Sequence record: MT782071.1 | DNA length: 64,000 nucleotides | Origin: Escherichia phage JN02 | Direction: 5' to 3' (one strand) | Shown: in pieces, positions 2,887 through 40,143 of the stretch | Numbering within the stretch: the first letter of the stretch is position 1 | Layout of the letters: every line of letters begins with the position of its first letter | Notes under the pieces: model-generated | The model's input: only the letters and a program-made list of their open reading frames with translations | Databases searched by the model: none | What the model was told of the DNA's origin: nothing | Translations under genes and position numbers: made by a program

Positions 2887-5212
<2,326 letters not shown>

Positions 5213-5239
5213 AAATAAAGCAAATTAAGAGGAATTAAA

Positions 5240-7222
5240 ATGGCACTTCTCTCTCCGGGCGTTGAGCTCAAAGAAACTACCGTACAGAGTACTGTAGTTA
5301 ATAACTCCACTGGTACTGCTGCCCTGGCTGGAAAATTCCAATGGGGACCGGCATTCCAGATTAAACAAATCACTGATGAAGTTTCATTAGTTGATATGTT
5401 TGGTACTCCTAATACGGATACAGCAGATTATTTCATGTCTGCTATGAACTTCCTTCAGTATGGTAATGACCTTCGTGTTGTACGCGCAGTTGATCGTGAT
5501 ACTGCTAAGAACTCATCTCCTGTAGCAGGCAATATTGAATTCACAATCTCTGCTGCTGGTAGTAACTATGCAGTCGGTGATAAAATTATCGTTAAGTATT
5601 TGACCGAAACTGTTGAAGCAGATGGTTATGTCACTTCAGTTGATGTCGATGGTAAAATTCTTAACATTTATATCCCAACCGGTAAAATTATTGCTCGTGC
5701 AAAAGAAATTAATGAATATCCGGCATTGGGTTCTAACTGGACCGCCGAAGTTGCCAGTTCTTCTTCTGGTCTCTCTGGCGTTATTACAATTGGTTCTATC
5801 GTAACCGATTCGGGTATTCTGTTAACTGAAGTTGAAACTTCTGAAGAAGCTATTACTTCTCTAACTTTCCAAGAATCTATTAAAAAATACGGTGTCCCGG
5901 GCGTAGTTGCTCTTTATCCTGGTGAACTTGGCGACCAGATCGAAATTGAAATCGTATCTAAAGCAGACTATGACAAAGGTGCTTCAGCCCAGTTAAAAAT
6001 TTATCCTGATGGTGGTACTCGTGCATCTACGGCTAAAGCAATCTTTGGGTATGGTCCACAAACTGATGACCAATATGCAATTATCGTTCGTCGTAACGAT
6101 GCAGTAGTTCAGAGCGTAGTTCTTTCTACTAAACGTGGTGAACGCGATATCTATGGTAGTAATATCTTTATTGATGATTTCTTTGCTAAAGGCGCAAGCA
6201 ATTATATTTTCGCTACAGCACAAGGTTGGCCAAAAGGTTTCTCTGGCGTAATCAAACTGGGTGGTGGCTTATCATCTAATGAAACAGTTGACGCTGGTGA
6301 TTTAATGGAAGCTTGGGATTTGTTTGCCGACCGCGAATCTGTTAATGCGCAGTTGTTTATTGCCGGTTCTTGTGCAGGTGAATCTTTAGAAGTTGCTTCT
6401 ACAGTTCAGAAACATGTTGTAGCAATTGGTGATTCTCGCCAAGATTGTTTGGTTCTTTGCTCACCGCCACGTGCAACTATAGTCGGTATTCCTGTTAATC
6501 GTGCAGTTGATAATCTGGTTGATTGGCGTACTGCGTCAGGAACTTACACTGATAATAACTTTAATGTAAGTTCTACTTATGCTGCTATTGACGGTAACTA
6601 TAAATATCAATATGACAAATATAATGACGTGAATCGTTGGGTTCCATTAGCTGCTGATATTGCTGGTCTTTGTGCTCGCACAGACAATATTTCTCAGCCT
6701 TGGATGTCTCCTGCCGGTTATAACCGTGGACAAATTCTTAACGTTATTAAGCTTGCAATTGAAACTCGCCAAGCGCAGCGTGATCGTTTGTATCAGGAAG
6801 CTATTAACCCTGTTACTGGTACCGGTGGTGATGGGTATGTTCTGTACGGTGATAAAACTGCCACGTCTGTTCCTTCACCATTTGACCGTATTAACGTTCG
6901 TCGTTTGTTCAATATGGTTAAAACGAACATTGGATCAGCATCTAAATATCGCCTGTTTGAATTGAACAACGCATTTACCCGTTCTTCTTTCCGTACAGAG
7001 ACTTCTCAATATCTACAGGGTATTAAAGCTCTCGGTGGTGTATATAACTTTAAAGTTGTTTGTGATACTACCAATAACACCCCAGCAGTTATCGACCGTA
7101 ATGAATTTGTAGCTACTTTCTACTTACAACCTGCCCGCTCGATAAATTATATTACGTTGAACTTTGTAGCAACAGCAACTGGTGCCGATTTCGACGAACT
7201 AATTGGTGCTGTAGGTGGCTAA
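5240..7222 (+). CDS. 18: tail sheath protein
   Basis: 660 aa (T4 gp18 659 aa); synteny; preceded by a late promoter. Confidence 0.95.
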   Translation: MALLSPGVELKETTVQSTVVNNSTGTAALAGKFQWGPAFQIKQITDEVSLVDMFGTPNTDTADYFMSAMNFLQYGNDLRVVRAVDRDTAKNSSPVAGNIEFTISAAGSNYAVGDKIIVKYLTETVEADGYVTSVDVDGKILNIYIPTGKIIARAKEINEYPALGSNWTAEVASSSSGLSGVITIGSIVTDSGILLTEVETSEEAITSLTFQESIKKYGVPGVVALYPGELGDQIEIEIVSKADYDKGASAQLKIYPDGGTRASTAKAIFGYGPQTDDQYAIIVRRNDAVVQSVVLSTKRGERDIYGSNIFIDDFFAKGASNYIFATAQGWPKGFSGVIKLGGGLSSNETVDAGDLMEAWDLFADRESVNAQLFIAGSCAGESLEVASTVQKHVVAIGDSRQDCLVLCSPPRATIVGIPVNRAVDNLVDWRTASGTYTDNNFNVSSTYAAIDGNYKYQYDKYNDVNRWVPLAADIAGLCARTDNISQPWMSPAGYNRGQILNVIKLAIETRQAQRDRLYQEAINPVTGTGGDGYVLYGDKTATSVPSPFDRINVRRLFNMVKTNIGSASKYRLFELNNAFTRSSFRTETSQYLQGIKALGGVYNFKVVCDTTNNTPAVIDRNEFVATFYLQPARSINYITLNFVATATGADFDELIGAVGG

Positions 7223-7233
7223 TAAGACGCCTG

Positions 7234-7262
7234 ATGGGCTATTTCGGTAGCCCATATAAATA
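7234..7262 (+). promoter_or_regulatory. stem-loop (UGGGCUA/UAGCCCA) abutting late promoter TATAAATA for gene 19
   Basis: 7-bp inverted repeat followed immediately by TATAAATA at about 7255-7262. Confidence 0.5.
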
Positions 7263-7335
7263 TAACCATATCGTTTAAAAATTAATTCTATGGGCATCTG
7301 GTTAATCCTAAGCCCATATTACTACAGAGGCTAAT

Positions 7336-7827
7336 ATGTTTGTAGATGACGTAACTCGTGCCTTCGAATCAGGTGATTTCGCTCGCCCTAACCTGTTCGA
7401 AGTAGAAATCTCTTATCTTGGGCAAAACTTTAGCTTCCAGTGTCGTGCTACGGCTCTTCCTGCTGCGATCGTTGAAAAGGTTCCTGTTTCTTATATGAAC
7501 CGTAAAATTAACGTGGCTGGTGATCGTACATTCGATGATTGGACTATTACAGTAATGAATGATGATGCTCATAGCATTCGTCAGAAATTTGTTGATTGGC
7601 AAGGTATTGCAGCAGGACAAGGTAATGAAATTACCGGTGGTAAACCTGCCGAATATAAAAAGACCGCTATCGTTCGTCAATTTGCTCGTGATGCTAAAAC
7701 GGTCACTAAAGAAGTTGAAATTGTTGGCTTGTGGCCTACTAACGTTGGTGAAGTATCTCTTGACTGGGACAGCAATAACGAGATTGAAACGTTCGAAGTA
7801 ACTCTTGCTCTTGATTGGTGGGAATAA
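7336..7827 (+). CDS. 19: tail tube protein
   Basis: 163 aa, same length as T4 gp19; synteny. Confidence 0.95.
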   Translation: MFVDDVTRAFESGDFARPNLFEVEISYLGQNFSFQCRATALPAAIVEKVPVSYMNRKINVAGDRTFDDWTITVMNDDAHSIRQKFVDWQGIAAGQGNEITGGKPAEYKKTAIVRQFARDAKTVTKEVEIVGLWPTNVGEVSLDWDSNNEIETFEVTLALDWWE

Positions 7828-7834
7828 TCTGGTT

Positions 7835-7883
7835 GGGGAGAAATCCCCAGCTTCCCGTGATGACGGAGAAGTCCATATAAATA
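7835..7883 (+). promoter_or_regulatory. GGGGA-GAAA-UCCCC hairpin followed by late promoter TATAAATA for gene 20
   Basis: GNRA-loop hairpin at about 7835-7848; TATAAATA at about 7876-7883, 29 nt before the gene 20 ATG. Confidence 0.5.
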
Positions 7884-7911
7884 TAACTATAATTCCCATT
7901 CGGAGAATACA

Positions 7912-9483
7912 ATGAAATTTAATATCTTAAGTTTGTTTGCTCCATGGGCAAAAATGGACGAACGTGATTACAAAGACCAAGAAAAAGAAAATTTAGAATC
8001 GATCACCACACCAAAATTGGACGATGGCGCTAAAGAATACGAAGTATCTGAAAATGAAGCACAGCAAACATATAATGCTATGTTTCAGAGAATGTTCGGT
8101 AGTCAAGAACCAGGGCTCAAATCAACCCGTGAATTAATCGATACGTATCGAAATTTGATGACGAACTATGAAGTGGATAACGCGGTCTCTGAAATAGTTT
8201 CCGATGCTATCGTATATGAAGATGATACAGAAGTCGTTTCTATAAATTTAGACAACACAAAATTTAGTCCAAATATCAAATCAATGATGTTGGATGAATT
8301 TAACGAAGTGTTAAATCATTTATCTTTCCAACGTAAAGGTTCAGATCATTTTAGACGTTGGTATGTGGATTCTCGAATTTTCTTCCATAAAATTATTGAC
8401 CCTAAACGCCCTAAAGAAGGTATTAAAGAGCTTCGTCGTTTAGACCCACGTCAAGTTCAATATGTCCGTGAAGTTATTACAACCACTGAAGCCGGTGTTA
8501 AAATAGTCAAGGGTTATAAAGAATATTTCATTTATGACACATCACACGAATCTTATGCTTGTGATGGCCGCATATATGAAGCTGGCACAAAAATAAAAAT
8601 CCCTAAAGCTGCGATTGTTTATGCCCATTCCGGTTTAGTTGATTGTTGTGGTAAAAATATCATCGGTTATTTGCATCGGGCTATTAAGCCAGCGAACCAA
8701 TTAAAACTTCTTGAAGATGCCGTTGTAATTTATCGTATTACTCGTGCTCCCGATCGTCGTGTATGGTACGTTGATACAGGTAATATGCCTTCAAGAAAAG
8801 CAGCAGAACATATGCAACATGTTATGAATACGATGAAAAACCGTATTGCATATGATGCTACTACAGGCAAGATTAAAAACCAGCAGCATATTATGTCGAT
8901 GACCGAAGATTATTGGTTACAACGACGTGATGGTAAAGCAGTAACAGAAGTTGACACATTACCAGGTGCAGATAATACCGGAAATATGGAAGATGTACGT
9001 TGGTTCCGTAATGCGCTTTATATGGCTTTACGTATTCCTATTACCCGTATTCCAAGTGACCAAGGTGGTATACAGTTTGATGCTGGTACTTCTATTACAC
9101 GAGATGAATTGTCATTTGGTAAATTTATTCGTGAGCTGCAACATAAATTTGAAGAGATATTCCTAGACCCGCTTAAAACTAATTTAATTCTTAAAGGAAT
9201 TATTACAGAAGATGAGTGGAATGATGAAATAAATAATATTAAGATAAAATTTCATCGGGATAGTTATTTCTCGGAATTAAAGGATGCTGAGATTCTGGAG
9301 CGTCGCATTAATATGCTTCAGATGGCCGAACCATTTATTGGTAAATATATTTCTCACAGAACAGCTATGAAAGATATTCTTCAGATGTCTGACGAGGAAA
9401 TTGAACAAGAGGCTAAGCAAATTGAAGAAGAGTCGAAAGAGGCTCGTTTCCAAGACCCCGACCAAGAACAAGAGGATTTTTAA
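7912..9483 (+). CDS. 20: portal protein
   Basis: 523 aa (T4 gp20 524 aa); synteny. Confidence 0.95.
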
Positions 9484-9719
9484 TGGACGATTTAATTCAA
9501 GCTATTAAATCAAACGACCTCGTTGCTACTCGAAAGTTTTTTGAAAGTGCAATGGCAGAAAAAACGGTTCGTTTGATTGAAGCACGCAAAGCAGAAATCG
9601 CTTCTCAATTTTTGATTGAAGGCGAAGAACCTGAAGAAGAAAAGAAAGCTAAAGCTTCGGAAGATGACGCTGATGAAGGCGATGACGACGAAGACGAAGA
9701 TGATGAGGACGATGAATAA
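9483..9719 (+). CDS. 67: prohead core protein gp67
   Basis: 78 aa with poly-acidic C-terminus ([12 protein letters not shown]); TAATG overlap with the gene 20 stop. Confidence 0.8.
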
Positions 9720-10144
9720 TGTATCTTATCCCTGAATCTTATGAATTGGTACTCGAAAATGTCGAAGCACTTATTCCTGAAGCACAGGGCCGAATCGATG
9801 CATTGTCTTCTGCTCTCGATATTGACGATATAAATACTATTATCGAGAACATGCTTGAAACTGAAACGGATTTAGCTGTTGCAATGGCTTCCATTATTAA
9901 TGAAGAACAGTTAAATGAGTTTATCGTTAAACATGTTTCTTCTCGTGGTGAAGTCACCCGCACTAAAGACCGTAAAACTCGTGAACGTAACGCGTTCCAA
10001 ACAACTGGTCTTTCTAAAGCAAAACGTAGACAAATCGCTCGTAAGGTCGTTAAAGCTAAAAAAGCTAACCCTTCAGGCCAAGTTAAAGGCTTGCGTAAGC
10101 GTAAAAAAGCTCTTAAACGTCGTAAAGCATTAGGATTAAGCTAA
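9719..10144 (+). CDS. 68: prohead core protein gp68
   Basis: 141 aa, same as T4 gp68; TAATG coupling on both sides. Confidence 0.8.
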
Positions 10145-10785
10145 TGAATAAACCCGAGTTACTTATTGAAACTTGGGGTCAACCCGGTGAGATTATTGAT
10201 GGCGTTCCAATGTTGGAATCTCATGATGGAAAAGATTCTGGCTTAAAACCAGGGCTTTATATAGAAGGTATTTTTCTTCAGGCAGAGGTTGTTAACCGAA
10301 ATAAACGTTTATATCCTAAACGCGTTTTGGAAAAAGCAGTAAGTGACTATATTAAAGAACAAGTCGAAACCAAACAAGCCCTTGGAGAATTAAACCATCC
10401 ACCTCGTGCAAATGTTGACCCTATGCAAGCCGCTATCATTATTGAAGATATGTGGTGGAAAGGAAACGATGTATATGGACGTGCTAGAATTATTGAAGGC
10501 GACCATGGTCCCGGTGATAAATTAGCTGCTAATATACGAGCTGGTTGGATTCCAGGTGTTTCCTCTCGTGGTCTTGGTTCTTTAACCGACACCAATAAAG
10601 GGTACCGTATCGTGAACGAAGGATTTAAATTAACCGTCGGCGTAGATGCCGTATGGGGACCTTCTGCTCCAGATGCTTGGGTTACTCCTAAACAAATATC
10701 AGAATCAGAAAATTCGGTGGAAATCACCAAAAACAGTGCTGATGAAGCATTTAAAGCTCTCGCAGAGAGTTTAAAAGCATTATAA
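10144..10785 (+). CDS. 21: prohead core protease
   Basis: 213 aa (T4 gp21 212 aa); synteny. Confidence 0.9.
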   Translation: MNKPELLIETWGQPGEIIDGVPMLESHDGKDSGLKPGLYIEGIFLQAEVVNRNKRLYPKRVLEKAVSDYIKEQVETKQALGELNHPPRANVDPMQAAIIIEDMWWKGNDVYGRARIIEGDHGPGDKLAANIRAGWIPGVSSRGLGSLTDTNKGYRIVNEGFKLTVGVDAVWGPSAPDAWVTPKQISESENSVEITKNSADEAFKALAESLKAL

Positions 10786-38154: not shown

Positions 38155-38736
38155 TTATTCACCACAAAAGTTTCGGATTTGTTCCCAATTCAGAGAACGA
38201 AGATTATTACGAGAGTACTGAATTACTTCAATACCGGCTTGTTTTAGAATGTCTGCCCAATTTTCAGGAGATCGATCGTATAATTCTGCATATACAACCT
38301 TTTTAATACCTGACTGCGTAATAGCTTTAGTGCAATCAGGACATGGAGAAAGCGTCGTATATAACGTAGCGCCTTCAATAGAATTACCTTTACGAGCTGC
38401 AAACAAAATTGCATTCAGTTCCGCATGGATTTCATTATTAGCAGACCATGCACTATGAGCGGCCCGAGGTTCTTTAGCCAAAACAAAATTATCTATCCGT
38501 CCAAATGCTGTAGTGCCTTCTTTATGTCCAGCAACTATGACCGGGCTTGGTTTATTCTTCAACCAACCATTTTCGGATGCATGTTCACAACAGTTAACAC
38601 CACCGGCTGGTGAGCCATTATATCCAGTAGAGATAATGCGCCCATCTTTTTCAATGACGGCACCAACTTTCCATGAACAACATTTTGATTCTTGAGAAAT
38701 CAGATATGCAATCTGAAGGTATGTGCTAGCTTTCAT
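38155..38736 (-). CDS. cd: dCMP deaminase
   Basis: 193 aa, same as T4 Cd; zinc motifs HAELNA and PCPDC. Confidence 0.95.
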   Translation of the reverse strand: MKASTYLQIAYLISQESKCCSWKVGAVIEKDGRIISTGYNGSPAGGVNCCEHASENGWLKNKPSPVIVAGHKEGTTAFGRIDNFVLAKEPRAAHSAWSANNEIHAELNAILFAARKGNSIEGATLYTTLSPCPDCTKAITQSGIKKVVYAELYDRSPENWADILKQAGIEVIQYSRNNLRSLNWEQIRNFCGE

Positions 38737-39728
38737 TATTGAACCTTATTAATATGAGTTAACAGCTCTTTAGTTTGTTCCCAACTGATGCACGCATCGG
38801 TAACGGAAACGCCATAGGACATATTATCAGAAATTTTTTGATTTCCTTCATGTAGGAATGATTCTATCATAATTCCTTTGACCAAATCATTAGCTGCTAA
38901 ATTTTTACCAATACCAATTTGATTGCTATAATGCCCATCAGCGTTTGCATGGCTACAGTCAACCATTACATAATGATTCAGACCTACTGCCCTTGCTTTG
39001 TTAGAAGCTTCTTGAATATCAGAAGAATGATAGTTCGGGCCGTTGGTCCCGCCACGCAATACGATATGCGTATTCTGATTACCTTCAGCTTCAACAATGC
39101 CTACAGTACCATCGACGTCCATACCCATATACCGATGAGGCCAGGCGGCACTATACATCGCGTCTGTAGCTACTTTAATAGAACCATTGGTTGCGTTCTT
39201 GAAGCCTACGCACATCGGTAGACCTGAAGCAATTTCACGATGTGTCTGACTTTCAGTCGTACGGGCGCCAATAGCAACCCATGAGAAAATACCAGAAAGA
39301 TACTTAATCGTGAATGGGTCTAATACTTCAGTTGCTAATGGAAGTCCCATACGTAGAAGTTTACGACACAATGTTCGTGCAACTATAAGACCGTGGTTCA
39401 TATCAAAACTTCCGTCAAGATATGGATCATTTACAAGACCTTTCCAACCTACGGTAGTTCGAGGCTTTTCAAAATAAACGCGCATCACTAACAGAACATT
39501 AGGAAGACGAGTTTGAAGTTCAGCCAGACGTTTGCCGTATTCAACAGCAGCAATAGGGTCATGAATTGAACAAGGACCTACAACAATAAGTTTGCGTGGG
39601 TCTTCACCATTCATAATCGAATTAACTTGTTCACGATGAGAAGCCACTTGTGATGCGTAAGCTTCCGACAAAGGAATAATCTCAGCCAGTTCTTTTGGAG
39701 AAATAAGTTTTCCGACGACAGGTAACAT
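38736..39728 (-). CDS. aroG: 3-deoxy-D-arabino-heptulosonate-7-phosphate (DAHP) synthase, class I (AroG/AroF/AroH-like)
   Basis: 330 aa; conserved LIVVGPCSIHD, MRVYFEKPRTTVGWKGL, GARTTESQTHRE, HIVLRGG, ESFLHEGNQ, TDACISWE align with E. coli AroG; stop overlaps the cd start (TAATG). Confidence 0.9.
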   Translation of the reverse strand: MLPVVGKLISPKELAEIIPLSEAYASQVASHREQVNSIMNGEDPRKLIVVGPCSIHDPIAAVEYGKRLAELQTRLPNVLLVMRVYFEKPRTTVGWKGLVNDPYLDGSFDMNHGLIVARTLCRKLLRMGLPLATEVLDPFTIKYLSGIFSWVAIGARTTESQTHREIASGLPMCVGFKNATNGSIKVATDAMYSAAWPHRYMGMDVDGTVGIVEAEGNQNTHIVLRGGTNGPNYHSSDIQEASNKARAVGLNHYVMVDCSHANADGHYSNQIGIGKNLAANDLVKGIMIESFLHEGNQKISDNMSYGVSVTDACISWEQTKELLTHINKVQ

Positions 39729-39848
39729 AACAATCCTTAGGAGATATAAACAGATTCTGATTCAACAATACCTTTAACCCGATTAGACAGGCTAAGTTGG
39801 TAGTGCTCAGATTTATGACCATTCTCGATAGTAATGAGATAGCTCTCA

Positions 39849-40085
39849 TTATAGTGTTCCATATACTCGAGTTGCTTCAACAAGACCATCACTGCCTAAT
39901 TTAAGATTAGTAATTTGGTCACCATCTTTAGGATTAACGATTATGAGAAAAGAACGTGGAGATTCTTGAATAACTCGTAATGTTGCATCTTGGAAACGTT
40001 CAGACACTTTATTGATGAGTGCTTGAGCAAATTCTTTTACTTTAATCTGAAATTCGTGTACTGTAATTGGGTTTTCACTTAGCAT
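39849..40085 (-). CDS. hypothetical protein (78 aa)
   Basis: GAGGA RBS; early promoter upstream. Confidence 0.5.
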   Translation of the reverse strand: MLSENPITVHEFQIKVKEFAQALINKVSERFQDATLRVIQESPRSFLIIVNPKDGDQITNLKLGSDGLVEATRVYGTL

Positions 40086-40113: not shown

Positions 40114-40143
40114 ATAGTATCACAACTCCACCGTGTTGTAAAC
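40114..40143 (-). promoter_or_regulatory. T4 early-type promoter (GTTTACA, 18 nt, TGaTACTAT)
   Basis: Minus-strand aGTTTACAacacggtggagttgTGATACTATaac. Confidence 0.55.

What the first reader, a model, noticed from the sequence alone, without database searches (positions are those of the whole stretch)
38736..39728. Phage-encoded DAHP synthase (shikimate-pathway entry enzyme) fused into the cd operon
A full-length class-I DAHP synthase with the metal- and PEP-binding motifs of E. coli AroG intact sits between cd and the small ORFs before pseT. Its stop overlaps the cd start (TAATG) and it has its own AAGGA RBS, so it looks like a functional early gene in the nucleotide-metabolism operon. From memory, T4 has only small cd.x ORFs in this slot. 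Possible roles are boosting aromatic amino-acid or chorismate supply during infection, or feeding a non-canonical sugar pathway.
Basis: partly seen in the sequence, partly recalled or inferred. Interest (0 to 1): 0.75.

Follow-up and report, generated by a model that had tools for sequence, protein, structure and literature searches.

The report
Phage DAHP synthase, known, probably deregulated
This T4-like coliphage really does carry an intact gene for the first enzyme of aromatic-compound biosynthesis next to its dCMP deaminase gene, but the gene is already annotated in more than 200 sequenced phages; the new point is that the phage version seems to have lost the normal feedback-inhibitor site.

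Summary
Window 38736-39728 (-) encodes a 330-aa class Ialpha DAHP synthase. All four metal ligands and the PEP/E4P residues are intact. It has its own AAGGA ribosome-binding site and its stop overlaps the cd start (TAATG). It sits where T4 has cd.1.

It is not new. The same gene (95-100% identical) is in about 140 Mosigvirus genomes. Homologs at 55-77% occupy the same slot in at least five other T4-like genera. GenBank annotates it, PHROGs files it as phrog_5045, and three papers mention it as an auxiliary metabolic gene of unknown function. RB69 and JK42, both Mosigvirus, lack it.

This analysis adds four things:
1. The T4-like phage copies form one clade (100/100 bootstrap) under purifying selection.
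2. Every clade member has a shortened N-terminus. All but two of 25 have Ile/Lys/Pro/Tyr at AroG positions 150/151/180/209, where about 95 cellular relatives have Pro/Gln/Ser/Phe and where single AroG substitutions abolish feedback inhibition. The enzyme is therefore probably insensitive to aromatic amino acids.
3. Mosigvirus imported the gene as a 1,113-bp cassette that carries a fragment of a foreign cd.2.
4. A link to arabinosyl-hmC DNA modification is not supported.

No function has been tested experimentally.

The parts
38736..39728 (-). DAHP synthase gene (330 aa, class Ialpha, AroF-like lineage, phage clade phrog_5045)
39734..39738 (-). AAGGA ribosome-binding site, 5 nt upstream of the ATG at 39728-39726
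   Evidence: read from the sequence
39737..39850 (-). Remnant of a foreign cd.2 gene (37 codons plus stop: NESYLITIENG...SVYIS*). It forms the 5' part of the imported cassette. It is 57%/56% identical to the cd.2 C-termini of Kanagawavirus Entb_45 and a Klebsiella phage, but only 29% to the resident cd.2.
   Evidence: (partial DUF7320)
39834..39852 (-). Left junction, ATAATGAGAGCTATCTCAT. The resident cd.2 stop plus a copy of the cd start codon region is fused to donor-type cd.2 sequence. It matches the right junction at 16 of 19 bases.
38721..38739 (-). Right junction, ATAATGAAAGCTAGCACAT. The DAHPS stop TAA overlaps the cd ATG. The 1,113 bp between the two repeats are absent from JK42 and RB69.
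38155..38736 (-). cd, dCMP deaminase, translationally coupled downstream gene
39849..40085 (-). Resident cd.2 (DUF7320, phrog_1504), complete
40114..40142 (-). Promoter-like site TTTACA-17-TACTAT with an upstream TG. It is at the position of T4's early promoter between cd.3 and cd.2, and is the nearest candidate promoter for cd.2-DAHPS-cd.
   Evidence: This is a consensus match only; the number of such sites in the region is not above the shuffled controls.

Best explanation
The gene encodes a catalytically competent, metal-dependent class Ialpha DAHP synthase (PEP + erythrose-4-phosphate -> DAHP). It is co-transcribed and translationally coupled with dCMP deaminase in the early nucleotide-metabolism gene block of a Mosigvirus.

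It descends from a single ancient capture of an AroF-type (Gly at the specificity position) cellular gene by T4-like phages. In that phage lineage the aromatic-amino-acid inhibitor site was remodelled. The N-terminal residues that cap the site are gone. The residues that hold the inhibitor's backbone, or whose single mutation gives feedback resistance in AroG (P150, Q151, S180, F209), are Ile, Lys, Pro and Tyr.

The most likely consequence is an enzyme that Tyr, Phe and Trp do not switch off. After host transcription is shut off, it would add unregulated entry flux into the shikimate/chorismate pathway and rely on host enzymes for every later step.

Shown: identity, intact catalytic residues, fold, clade structure, selection, site substitutions, and the cassette structure. 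Inferred: enzymatic activity, early expression, insensitivity to feedback, and the benefit to the phage.
For: - **Family and catalytic residues:**
- **Fold:** AF2 model pLDDT 93.3, with TM 0.96 and rmsd 1.4 A to solved Ialpha DAHPS; the beta6a/6b hairpin is retained.
- **Clade signature:** in 25 phage-clade sequences against about 98 cellular ones, the N-terminus before the catalytic Cys is 48-52 aa against >=58. Positions 150/151/180/209 are I/K/P/Y (two single exceptions) against P(V)/Q/S(T)/F(L).
- **Published mutagenesis:** AroG P150L is fully Phe-resistant. S180F, F209A/S, L175D and others are resistant. Q151/Q152 and S180/S181 contact the inhibitor's main chain in AroG/AroF (PMC9529685).
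- **Single origin:** the phage clade is monophyletic in 100/100 bootstraps.
- **Selection:** dN/dS is 0.13-0.24 between genera.
- **Synteny:** the same slot is used in Mosigvirus, Kanagawavirus, Winklervirus, Kagamiyamavirus, Bragavirus and a Klebsiella phage.
- **Second lineage:** an unrelated phage lineage (Aeromonas phage HJ05 and relatives) also has non-canonical residues, A/H/P/V, including the same Ser180->Pro. Of its cellular hits, 103 of 117 are PQSF.
Against: - No enzyme assay, expression data or mutant phenotype exists for any phage copy.
- The exact substitutions (P->I, Q->K, S->P, F->Y) are not the ones tested in AroG.
- Lys142, Pro171 and Tyr200 are themselves conserved. This could mean a re-specified effector site rather than a dead one.
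- The gene is dispensable. RB69 and JK42 lack it, and G53 carries a frameshifting 55-bp duplication.
- If phage protein synthesis depleted aromatic amino acids, host AroF/G/H would be de-inhibited anyway, so the benefit of a feedback-blind enzyme is not self-evident.
- The promoter assignment rests on a consensus match that is not above chance.
Confidence: 0.6

Rival explanations
1. It is an ordinary Tyr-sensitive AroF-type isozyme, as many GenBank records label it. It simply adds regulated DAHP synthase capacity to support aromatic amino-acid supply for phage protein synthesis.
For: The best PDB and E. coli match is AroF (51% identity, E=3e-105). Gly is present at the Tyr/Phe specificity position (AroG S211 = phage G202). 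The AMG hypothesis in PMC11845039 is the same.
Against: Three inhibitor-contact or resistance positions that are Pro(Gly)/Gln/Ser in all three E. coli isozymes and in about 95 cellular relatives are Ile/Lys/Pro in the phage clade. The N-terminal cap (AroG D6/D7, AroF N8) is missing.
Confidence: 0.15
2. The allosteric pocket has been re-specified rather than destroyed. The conserved Lys142, Pro171 and Tyr200 bind a different effector (for example a nucleotide, chorismate/prephenate or a phage metabolite), which would tie DAHP synthesis to the phage programme.
For: The substituted residues are themselves invariant or nearly so across a clade in which only 34% of positions are invariant. The beta6a/6b hairpin that forms the pocket is retained in the model.
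Against: No ligand is indicated by any data. The conservation could equally reflect structural filling of the pocket. The N-terminal cap that closes the site is absent.
Confidence: 0.12
3. Its value lies in what it consumes, not in what it makes. An unregulated sink for erythrose-4-phosphate (and PEP) would pull the transketolase reaction F6P + G3P -> E4P + Xu5P, raising pentose-phosphate supply for nucleotide synthesis. This would be analogous in logic to cyanophage transaldolase.
For: The gene lies in the nucleotide-metabolism block (frd, td, nrdAB, cd). Predicted feedback blindness fits a sink. The cyanophage precedent is recalled from memory and was not tested here.
Against: This is purely inferential, with no supporting data. 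It would waste PEP. Most T4-like phages, including T4, do without the gene.
Confidence: 0.08
4. It feeds a non-canonical sugar pathway linked to the arabinosyl-hydroxymethylcytosine DNA modification of Mosigvirus.
For: Mosigvirus phages carry an arabinose-5-phosphate isomerase-like gene and an arabinosyltransferase. Several DAHPS-positive genera also carry the isomerase.
Against: RB69, in which ara-hmC was chemically demonstrated, lacks the DAHPS, and so does JK42. 25 Klebsiella phage records have the DAHPS, but Klebsiella is not among the isomerase carriers listed. 57 Acinetobacter records have the isomerase but only 4 have a DAHPS hit. The E4P-binding KPRT motif is canonical.
Confidence: 0.03
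5. It is a hitch-hiking gene with no role in infection.
For: The gene is dispensable in RB69 and JK42 and is frameshifted in G53.
Against: dN/dS is 0.13-0.24. All catalytic residues are invariant across 25 sequences down to 55% identity. Position is conserved in at least six genera. About 140 of roughly 150 Mosigvirus-like records retain it intact.
Confidence: 0.02

Closest known systems
E. coli AroF (Tyr-sensitive DAHP synthase, class Ialpha; PDB 6agm/6agl)
   Same: 51% identity over the whole catalytic core. The four metal ligands, the PEP and E4P residues, and Gly at the Tyr/Phe specificity position are the same. The predicted fold is the same.
   Different: The phage protein is 26 aa shorter. 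It lacks the N-terminal residues including the AroF N8 equivalent. AroF P151/Q152/S181/F210 are I/K/P/Y. It has small deletions near the C-terminus. GC content is 40-45%, ameliorated towards the phage genome.
Engineered feedback-resistant AroG/AroF alleles (AroG P150L, S180F, F209A; review PMC9529685)
   Same: The substitutions fall at the same positions, and a bulky aliphatic residue replaces Pro150.
   Different: The phage enzyme combines four such changes with an N-terminal truncation, fixed by natural selection across a whole clade. The specific residues differ from the laboratory alleles, and resistance has not been measured.
phrog_5045 / GenBank 'phospho-2-dehydro-3-deoxyheptonate aldolase' of Mosigvirus phages (PhAPEC2 gp185, JS09, HX01, O157 typing phages, phiC120 ORF64)
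   Same: It is the same gene: 98-100% protein identity and identical position.
   Different: Nothing material. This window's copy is one more allele.
T4 cd.1 slot
   Same: Both occupy the same position between cd.2 and cd in a syntenic pseT-cd.5..cd.2-[x]-cd-31.x-31 block.
   Different: T4 cd.1 is a 112-aa hypothetical protein unrelated to DAHPS. In X20 and EcS1 another small ORF lies between the DAHPS and cd; its relationship to T4 cd.1 was not tested.

Membership tests
Class Ialpha DAHP synthase (AroF/G/H; TIGR00034, PF00793) | Profile-HMM score above the curated thresholds | tested here: met
   TIGR00034 428.7 bits against 173.2; PRK12755 455.9 against 343; PF00793 252.3 against 25.5
Class Ialpha DAHP synthase (AroF/G/H; TIGR00034, PF00793) | Metal ligands Cys61, His268, Glu302, Asp326 (AroG numbering) | tested here: met
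   C53, H260, E289, D311; invariant in all 123 aligned sequences
Class Ialpha DAHP synthase (AroF/G/H; TIGR00034, PF00793) | PEP-binding Arg92, Lys97, Arg165, Lys186, Arg234 and the KPRT E4P motif | tested here: met
   R83, K88, R156, K177, R225; K88-P89-R90-T91
Class Ialpha DAHP synthase (AroF/G/H; TIGR00034, PF00793) | (beta/alpha)8 barrel with the beta6a/6b insertion | tested here: met
   AF2 pLDDT 93.3; strands 198-203 and 209-214; Foldseek TM 0.96, rmsd 1.4 A to 4hso, 8e0u, 1kfl
Class Ialpha DAHP synthase (AroF/G/H; TIGR00034, PF00793) | Catalyses PEP + E4P -> DAHP | not testable with these tools
   Needs an enzyme assay or complementation of an aroFGH triple mutant
Tyr-sensitive AroF isozyme (as many GenBank records label it) | Gly at the Tyr/Phe specificity position (AroF G212) | tested here: met
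   Phage G202
Tyr-sensitive AroF isozyme (as many GenBank records label it) | Inhibitor-site residues (AroF P151, Q152, S181, F210) and the N-terminal cap (N8, I11 region) | tested here: not met
   I141, K142, P171, Y200. The N-terminus is about 9 aa shorter and has no equivalent of N8
Tyr-sensitive AroF isozyme (as many GenBank records label it) | Inhibition by tyrosine | not testable with these tools
   Needs an enzyme assay
Phe-sensitive AroG / Trp-sensitive AroH isozymes | Isozyme-specific NCBIfam models above cutoff | tested here: not met
   AroG model 363.9 bits against 568; AroH model 386.5 against 463
KDO8P synthase (KdsA; shares Pfam PF00793) | Match to a KdsA-specific model | tested here: not met
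   No KdsA model is among the NCBIfam hits at E<=0.01; all the hits are DAHPS models
Phage AMG family phrog_5045 | Full-length profile match | tested here: met
   E=5.4e-182, residues 1-330 on profile positions 8-337 of 341
Arabinosyl-hmC modification module of Mosigvirus | Co-occurrence with the arabinose-5-phosphate isomerase gene, and presence in the phage where ara-hmC was shown | tested here: not met
   Absent from RB69. Distributions are discordant for Klebsiella, Acinetobacter and Yersinia phages

The most novel reading that the evidence does not exclude
T4-like phages have maintained for a long time a naturally feedback-blind (or re-specified) DAHP synthase. A second, unrelated phage lineage (Aeromonas phage HJ05) reached a similarly non-canonical inhibitor site, including the same Ser180->Pro change. 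That would mean phages repeatedly select for an always-open valve into the shikimate/chorismate pathway. It would also imply that the wanted product is not the aromatic amino acids themselves. The alternatives are a chorismate-derived cofactor (for example pABA/folate for the td/gp42 reactions) or the drain on E4P/PEP.
Probability: 0.3. Interest if true: 0.55.

Novelty: already known. Interest (0 to 1): 0.33.

Why it matters
The gene's presence adds nothing new, because it is catalogued and has been commented on. The residue-level result turns a vague 'AMG of unknown function' into a sharp hypothesis that is cheap to test: phages carry a natural feedback-resistant DAHP synthase.

If that is confirmed, three things follow:
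- It would show which control point of central aromatic metabolism these phages override.
- It would offer a ready-made deregulated enzyme of the kind metabolic engineers build by mutagenesis.
- It would raise the question of what chorismate-derived product, or what substrate drain, benefits a lytic phage.

The natural presence/absence pairs within one genus (RB69, JK42 and frameshifted G53 against about 140 carriers) make the fitness question tractable.

Tried and rejected
1. **Arabinosyl-hmC link.** I followed this because Mosigvirus modifies its DNA with arabinose and carries an A5P-isomerase-like gene. I rejected it because RB69 and JK42 lack the DAHPS and the two genes' distributions are discordant.
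2. **Literature searches for experimental work on phage DAHPS.** Eight searches found only annotation-level mentions. One further query failed on syntax and is not counted among the eight.
3. **A recent cellular donor.** None was found. The best cellular proteins are 50-54% identical and taxonomically scattered: Pontiella, Planctomycetota, Pseudomonadales MAGs and enterobacterial AroF.
4. **A dedicated promoter, MotA box or late promoter upstream of the gene.** None was found. The consensus scan is not above shuffled controls.
5. **A terminator-like hairpin inside the cd.2 remnant (39795-39774).** It is weak and within chance expectation.
6. **'Bacteriophage sp.' human-faecal contigs and Acinetobacter phage MD-2021a contigs with DAHPS hits.** These are unverified short contigs of a different subfamily (GPCSAD motif) or likely bacterial bins, so I did not use them as evidence.
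7. **GC anomaly.** The gene is only mildly richer in GC (0.40-0.45) than its flanks (0.34-0.40), so this says nothing about a recent transfer from a cell.
Full report
**1. The observation**

The minus strand of window 38736-39728 holds a 330-codon ORF starting at ATG. Three details can be read directly from the sequence:
- Its stop (TAA, 38738-38736) shares one base with the ATG of the next gene (38736-38734), giving TAATG.
- AAGGA lies at 39738-39734, five bases before the start codon.
- The downstream gene is a 193-aa dCMP deaminase (PF00383, E=2e-26).

Upstream on the same strand lie a 78-aa DUF7320 protein (cd.2), a 91-aa DUF7355 protein (cd.3), two more small ORFs and polynucleotide kinase/phosphatase pseT.

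**2. What the protein is**

It matches the class-I DAHP synthase family far above curated thresholds. The scores are PF00793 at E=5e-75, the TIGR00034 'aroFGH' equivalog at 428.7 bits against a cutoff of 173.2, and PRK12755 at 455.9 bits against 343. It falls below the cutoffs of the AroG-specific and AroH-specific models.

Among solved structures the best sequence match is E. coli Tyr-sensitive AroF (E=3e-105). Aligned with E. coli K-12 AroG, AroF and AroH, fetched from NC_000913, it is 47%, 51% and 44% identical.

All catalytic residues are conserved:
- The four metal ligands, AroG C61/H268/E302/D326, are phage C53/H260/E289/D311.
- The PEP-binding residues R92/K97/G163/A164/R165/K186/R234 are conserved.
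- The KPRT motif is conserved.

An AlphaFold2 model built on a 37-sequence alignment is confident (pLDDT 93.3, pTM 0.92). It retains the beta6a/6b hairpin. It superposes on solved class Ialpha DAHP synthases with TM 0.96 and rmsd 1.4 A. No KDO8P synthase model appears among the hits.

I therefore accept membership of class Ialpha DAHP synthase on every sequence and fold criterion. Enzyme activity itself cannot be tested here.

**3. It is already known**

By megablast the gene is in 145 phage records, 122 of them at >=99% identity. All are E. coli or Shigella phages of the Mosigvirus type: PhAPEC2, JS09, HX01, the O157 typing phages, Shf125875 and phiC120. Most are annotated as 'phospho-2-dehydro-3-deoxyheptonate aldolase', 'aroF', 'AroG' or 'DAHP synthetase'.

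By tblastn it is in 212 records, including phages of Klebsiella, Enterobacter, Edwardsiella, Erwinia, Serratia and Proteus. PHROGs v4 holds it as phrog_5045 in the 'moron, auxiliary metabolic gene and host takeover' category (E=5e-182).

Three papers mention it:
- The phiC120 genome paper notes a DAHP synthetase domain in ORF 64 (PMC8022965).
- A 2025 Klebsiella-phage paper notes it in a Kanagawavirus and hypothesises aromatic amino-acid supply (PMC11845039).

Eight literature searches found no experimental study of any phage copy.

**4. Genomic context and history**

The DAHP synthase occupies that slot in several lineages:
- Mosigvirus
- Kanagawavirus, phages Entb_45 and PEi26
- Winklervirus, phage X20
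- Kagamiyamavirus, phage EcS1
- a Klebsiella phage
- Bragavirus, phage PM2, with two small ORFs intervening

Within Mosigvirus it is accessory. In RB69 and JK42 the cd.2 stop abuts the cd start directly. About 139 records carry the full gene, against about 151 Mosigvirus-level hits for an unrelated marker gene.

Aligning the window with JK42 shows a clean 1,113-bp indel. It is bounded by an imperfect direct repeat, ATAATGAGAGCTATCTCAT at 39852-39834 and ATAATGAAAGCTAGCACAT at 38739-38721, which match at 16 of 19 bases.

The first 111 nt of the insert encode NESYLITIENGHKSEHYQLSLSNRVKGIVESESVYIS*. This is the C-terminal half of a cd.2 protein. It is 57% and 56% identical to the cd.2 of Kanagawavirus Entb_45 and the Klebsiella phage, but only 29% identical to the resident Mosigvirus cd.2. 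Homology to the donor type begins at TATCTCATTACT, and upstream of that the sequence is the resident cd.2 end and cd start.

My inference is that Mosigvirus acquired the gene from another T4-like lineage in which cd.2-DAHPS-cd was already contiguous. There would have been a homologous crossover in cd on one side and a microhomology junction at the cd start on the other. A deletion between the repeats would regenerate the RB69/JK42 arrangement, so the direction of individual events within Mosigvirus stays open.

GC content (0.40-0.45) is only slightly above that of the flanks.

**5. Origin and selection**

A search of 5.8 billion proteins returns a graded series of phage-type proteins (98% down to 55% identity, 319-343 aa). 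Cellular proteins follow at 50-54% from scattered taxa, with no close donor.

In a neighbour-joining tree of 25 phage-type and 98 cellular sequences, the phage clade is recovered in 100 of 100 bootstraps. Pairwise dN/dS between genera is 0.13-0.24; dS is close to saturation, so these values are rough. Catalytic residues are invariant throughout. This is a maintained, functional gene rather than a decaying passenger.

**6. The new point: the inhibitor site**

In class Ialpha enzymes the aromatic amino acid binds between the beta6a/6b hairpin region of one subunit and the N-terminus of its partner. The review PMC9529685 summarises the relevant mutagenesis:
- AroG P150L is completely Phe-resistant.
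- S180F, L175D, L179A, F209A/S and V221A are resistant.
- Gln151 is involved in inhibition.
- The side chains of Q151/Q152 and S180/S181 hold the inhibitor's main chain in AroG and AroF.

That AroG Asp6/Asp7 contact the inhibitor, and that AroF N8K and delta-Ile11 give resistance, I recall from memory and did not check here.

The phage protein starts at about AroG residue 9-10, so the equivalents of D6/D7 and N8 are absent. It has Ile141, Lys142, Pro171 and Tyr200 at AroG positions 150, 151, 180 and 209.

Across the 123-sequence alignment the split is clean:

| Feature | Phage clade (25 sequences) | Cellular proteins (about 98) |
|---|---|---|
| Residues before the catalytic Cys | 48-52 | at least 58 |
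| AroG positions 150/151/180/209 | I/K/P/Y (one K->R, one I->P) | P(V)/Q/S(T)/F(L) |
| Tyr/Phe specificity position | Gly | Gly |

The shared Gly means the ancestor was AroF-like.

The most economical reading is that the phage enzyme is not inhibited by Tyr, Phe or Trp. Two cautions apply. The precise substitutions have not been tested. The replacement residues are also themselves conserved, in a clade where only 34% of positions are invariant, so a re-specified effector site remains possible.

The unrelated Aeromonas phage HJ05 (79 kb, 38% identity, different context) and its three close relatives have A/H(S)/P/V at the same four positions. Of their cellular hits, 103 of 117 have PQSF. This hints at convergence, but the ancestry of that lineage is unresolved.

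**7. How it probably works**

The nearest promoter-like site on the coding strand (TTTACA-17-TACTAT, 40142-40114) lies where T4 has an early promoter between cd.3 and cd.2. No MotA box or late-promoter motif lies in the 470 nt upstream. I therefore infer early co-expression with cd, but the scan is not statistically informative.

DAHP synthase is the feedback-controlled entry step of the shikimate pathway (established knowledge). A single deregulated copy would therefore raise flux to chorismate using host downstream enzymes.

A feedback-blind enzyme suggests the phage wants flux even when aromatic amino acids are plentiful. That points away from the amino acids themselves, towards chorismate-derived products or towards consumption of E4P/PEP. 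This is inference only.

**8. Rejected link to DNA arabinosylation**

Mosigvirus phages carry an arabinose-5-phosphate isomerase-like gene in the gp43-uvsX module proposed for UDP-arabinose synthesis. However:
- RB69, where ara-hmC was demonstrated, lacks the DAHP synthase.
- 25 Klebsiella phage records have the synthase, but Klebsiella is not among the listed isomerase carriers.
- 57 Acinetobacter and 6 Yersinia records have the isomerase. Only 4 Acinetobacter records have a synthase hit, and Yersinia is not among the ten organism names listed for the synthase.

**9. Verdict**

Interest is modest. It rests on the testable prediction of a natural feedback-resistant enzyme and on the unanswered question of what a lytic phage gains from it.

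Noticed in passing
window 39737-39892 (-): The 51-codon ORF (GTG start) just upstream of the DAHPS is not an independent gene. Its last 37 codons are the C-terminal half of a foreign cd.2, and its first 14 codons overlap the end of the resident cd.2 in another frame. PHROGs holds it as its own family (phrog_15876), so it is being annotated as a protein in related phages.
   Followed up: yes
window 39682-39849 (-): A 55-codon ORF begins with ATGAGAGCTATCTCA (MRAIS...), a near copy of the cd start ATGAAAGCTAGCACA (MKAST...). It overlaps the DAHPS start. It looks like a recombination scar carrying a duplicated cd start codon rather than a gene.
   Followed up: partly
L018 (Escherichia phage vB_EcoM_G53, MK327943.1) 601-1648: The DAHPS gene carries a perfect 55-bp tandem duplication after about codon 231, which shifts the frame. 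The depositors marked it as a misc_feature. It is either a natural knockout or an assembly artefact.
   Followed up: partly
L008 (Aeromonas phage HJ05, OQ594355.1) 4899-6062: A 79-kb phage that is not T4-like carries a distant DAHPS (38% identity, annotated as hypothetical) with a long N-terminal extension as annotated. It has A/H/P/V at the four inhibitor-site positions. Three close relatives exist in metagenomes (P0121-P0123).
   Followed up: partly
proteins P0126, P0130, P0133, P0134 (Cobetia spp.): A small group of cellular class Ialpha DAHP synthases also has a non-canonical inhibitor-site pattern (A/A/G/H at 150/151/180/209) and long N-termini. They may be unregulated or differently regulated paralogues.
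   Followed up: no
window 39774-39795 (-): A weak terminator-like hairpin followed by a T-rich stretch lies inside the cd.2 remnant, about 50 nt before the DAHPS start. It is within chance expectation for the region.
   Followed up: no
L010 (PhAPEC2, NC_024794) 3640-10192: The gp43-uvsX module of this phage group holds several metabolic-looking genes: an arabinose-5-phosphate isomerase-like gene, a gene annotated as phosphoheptose isomerase, a 561-aa fused ORF052/053 homolog, a peptidase, a second thymidylate-synthase-like gene (probably dCMP hydroxymethylase) and a thymidylate kinase-like gene. It lies outside this window and was used only as a probe.
   Followed up: partly
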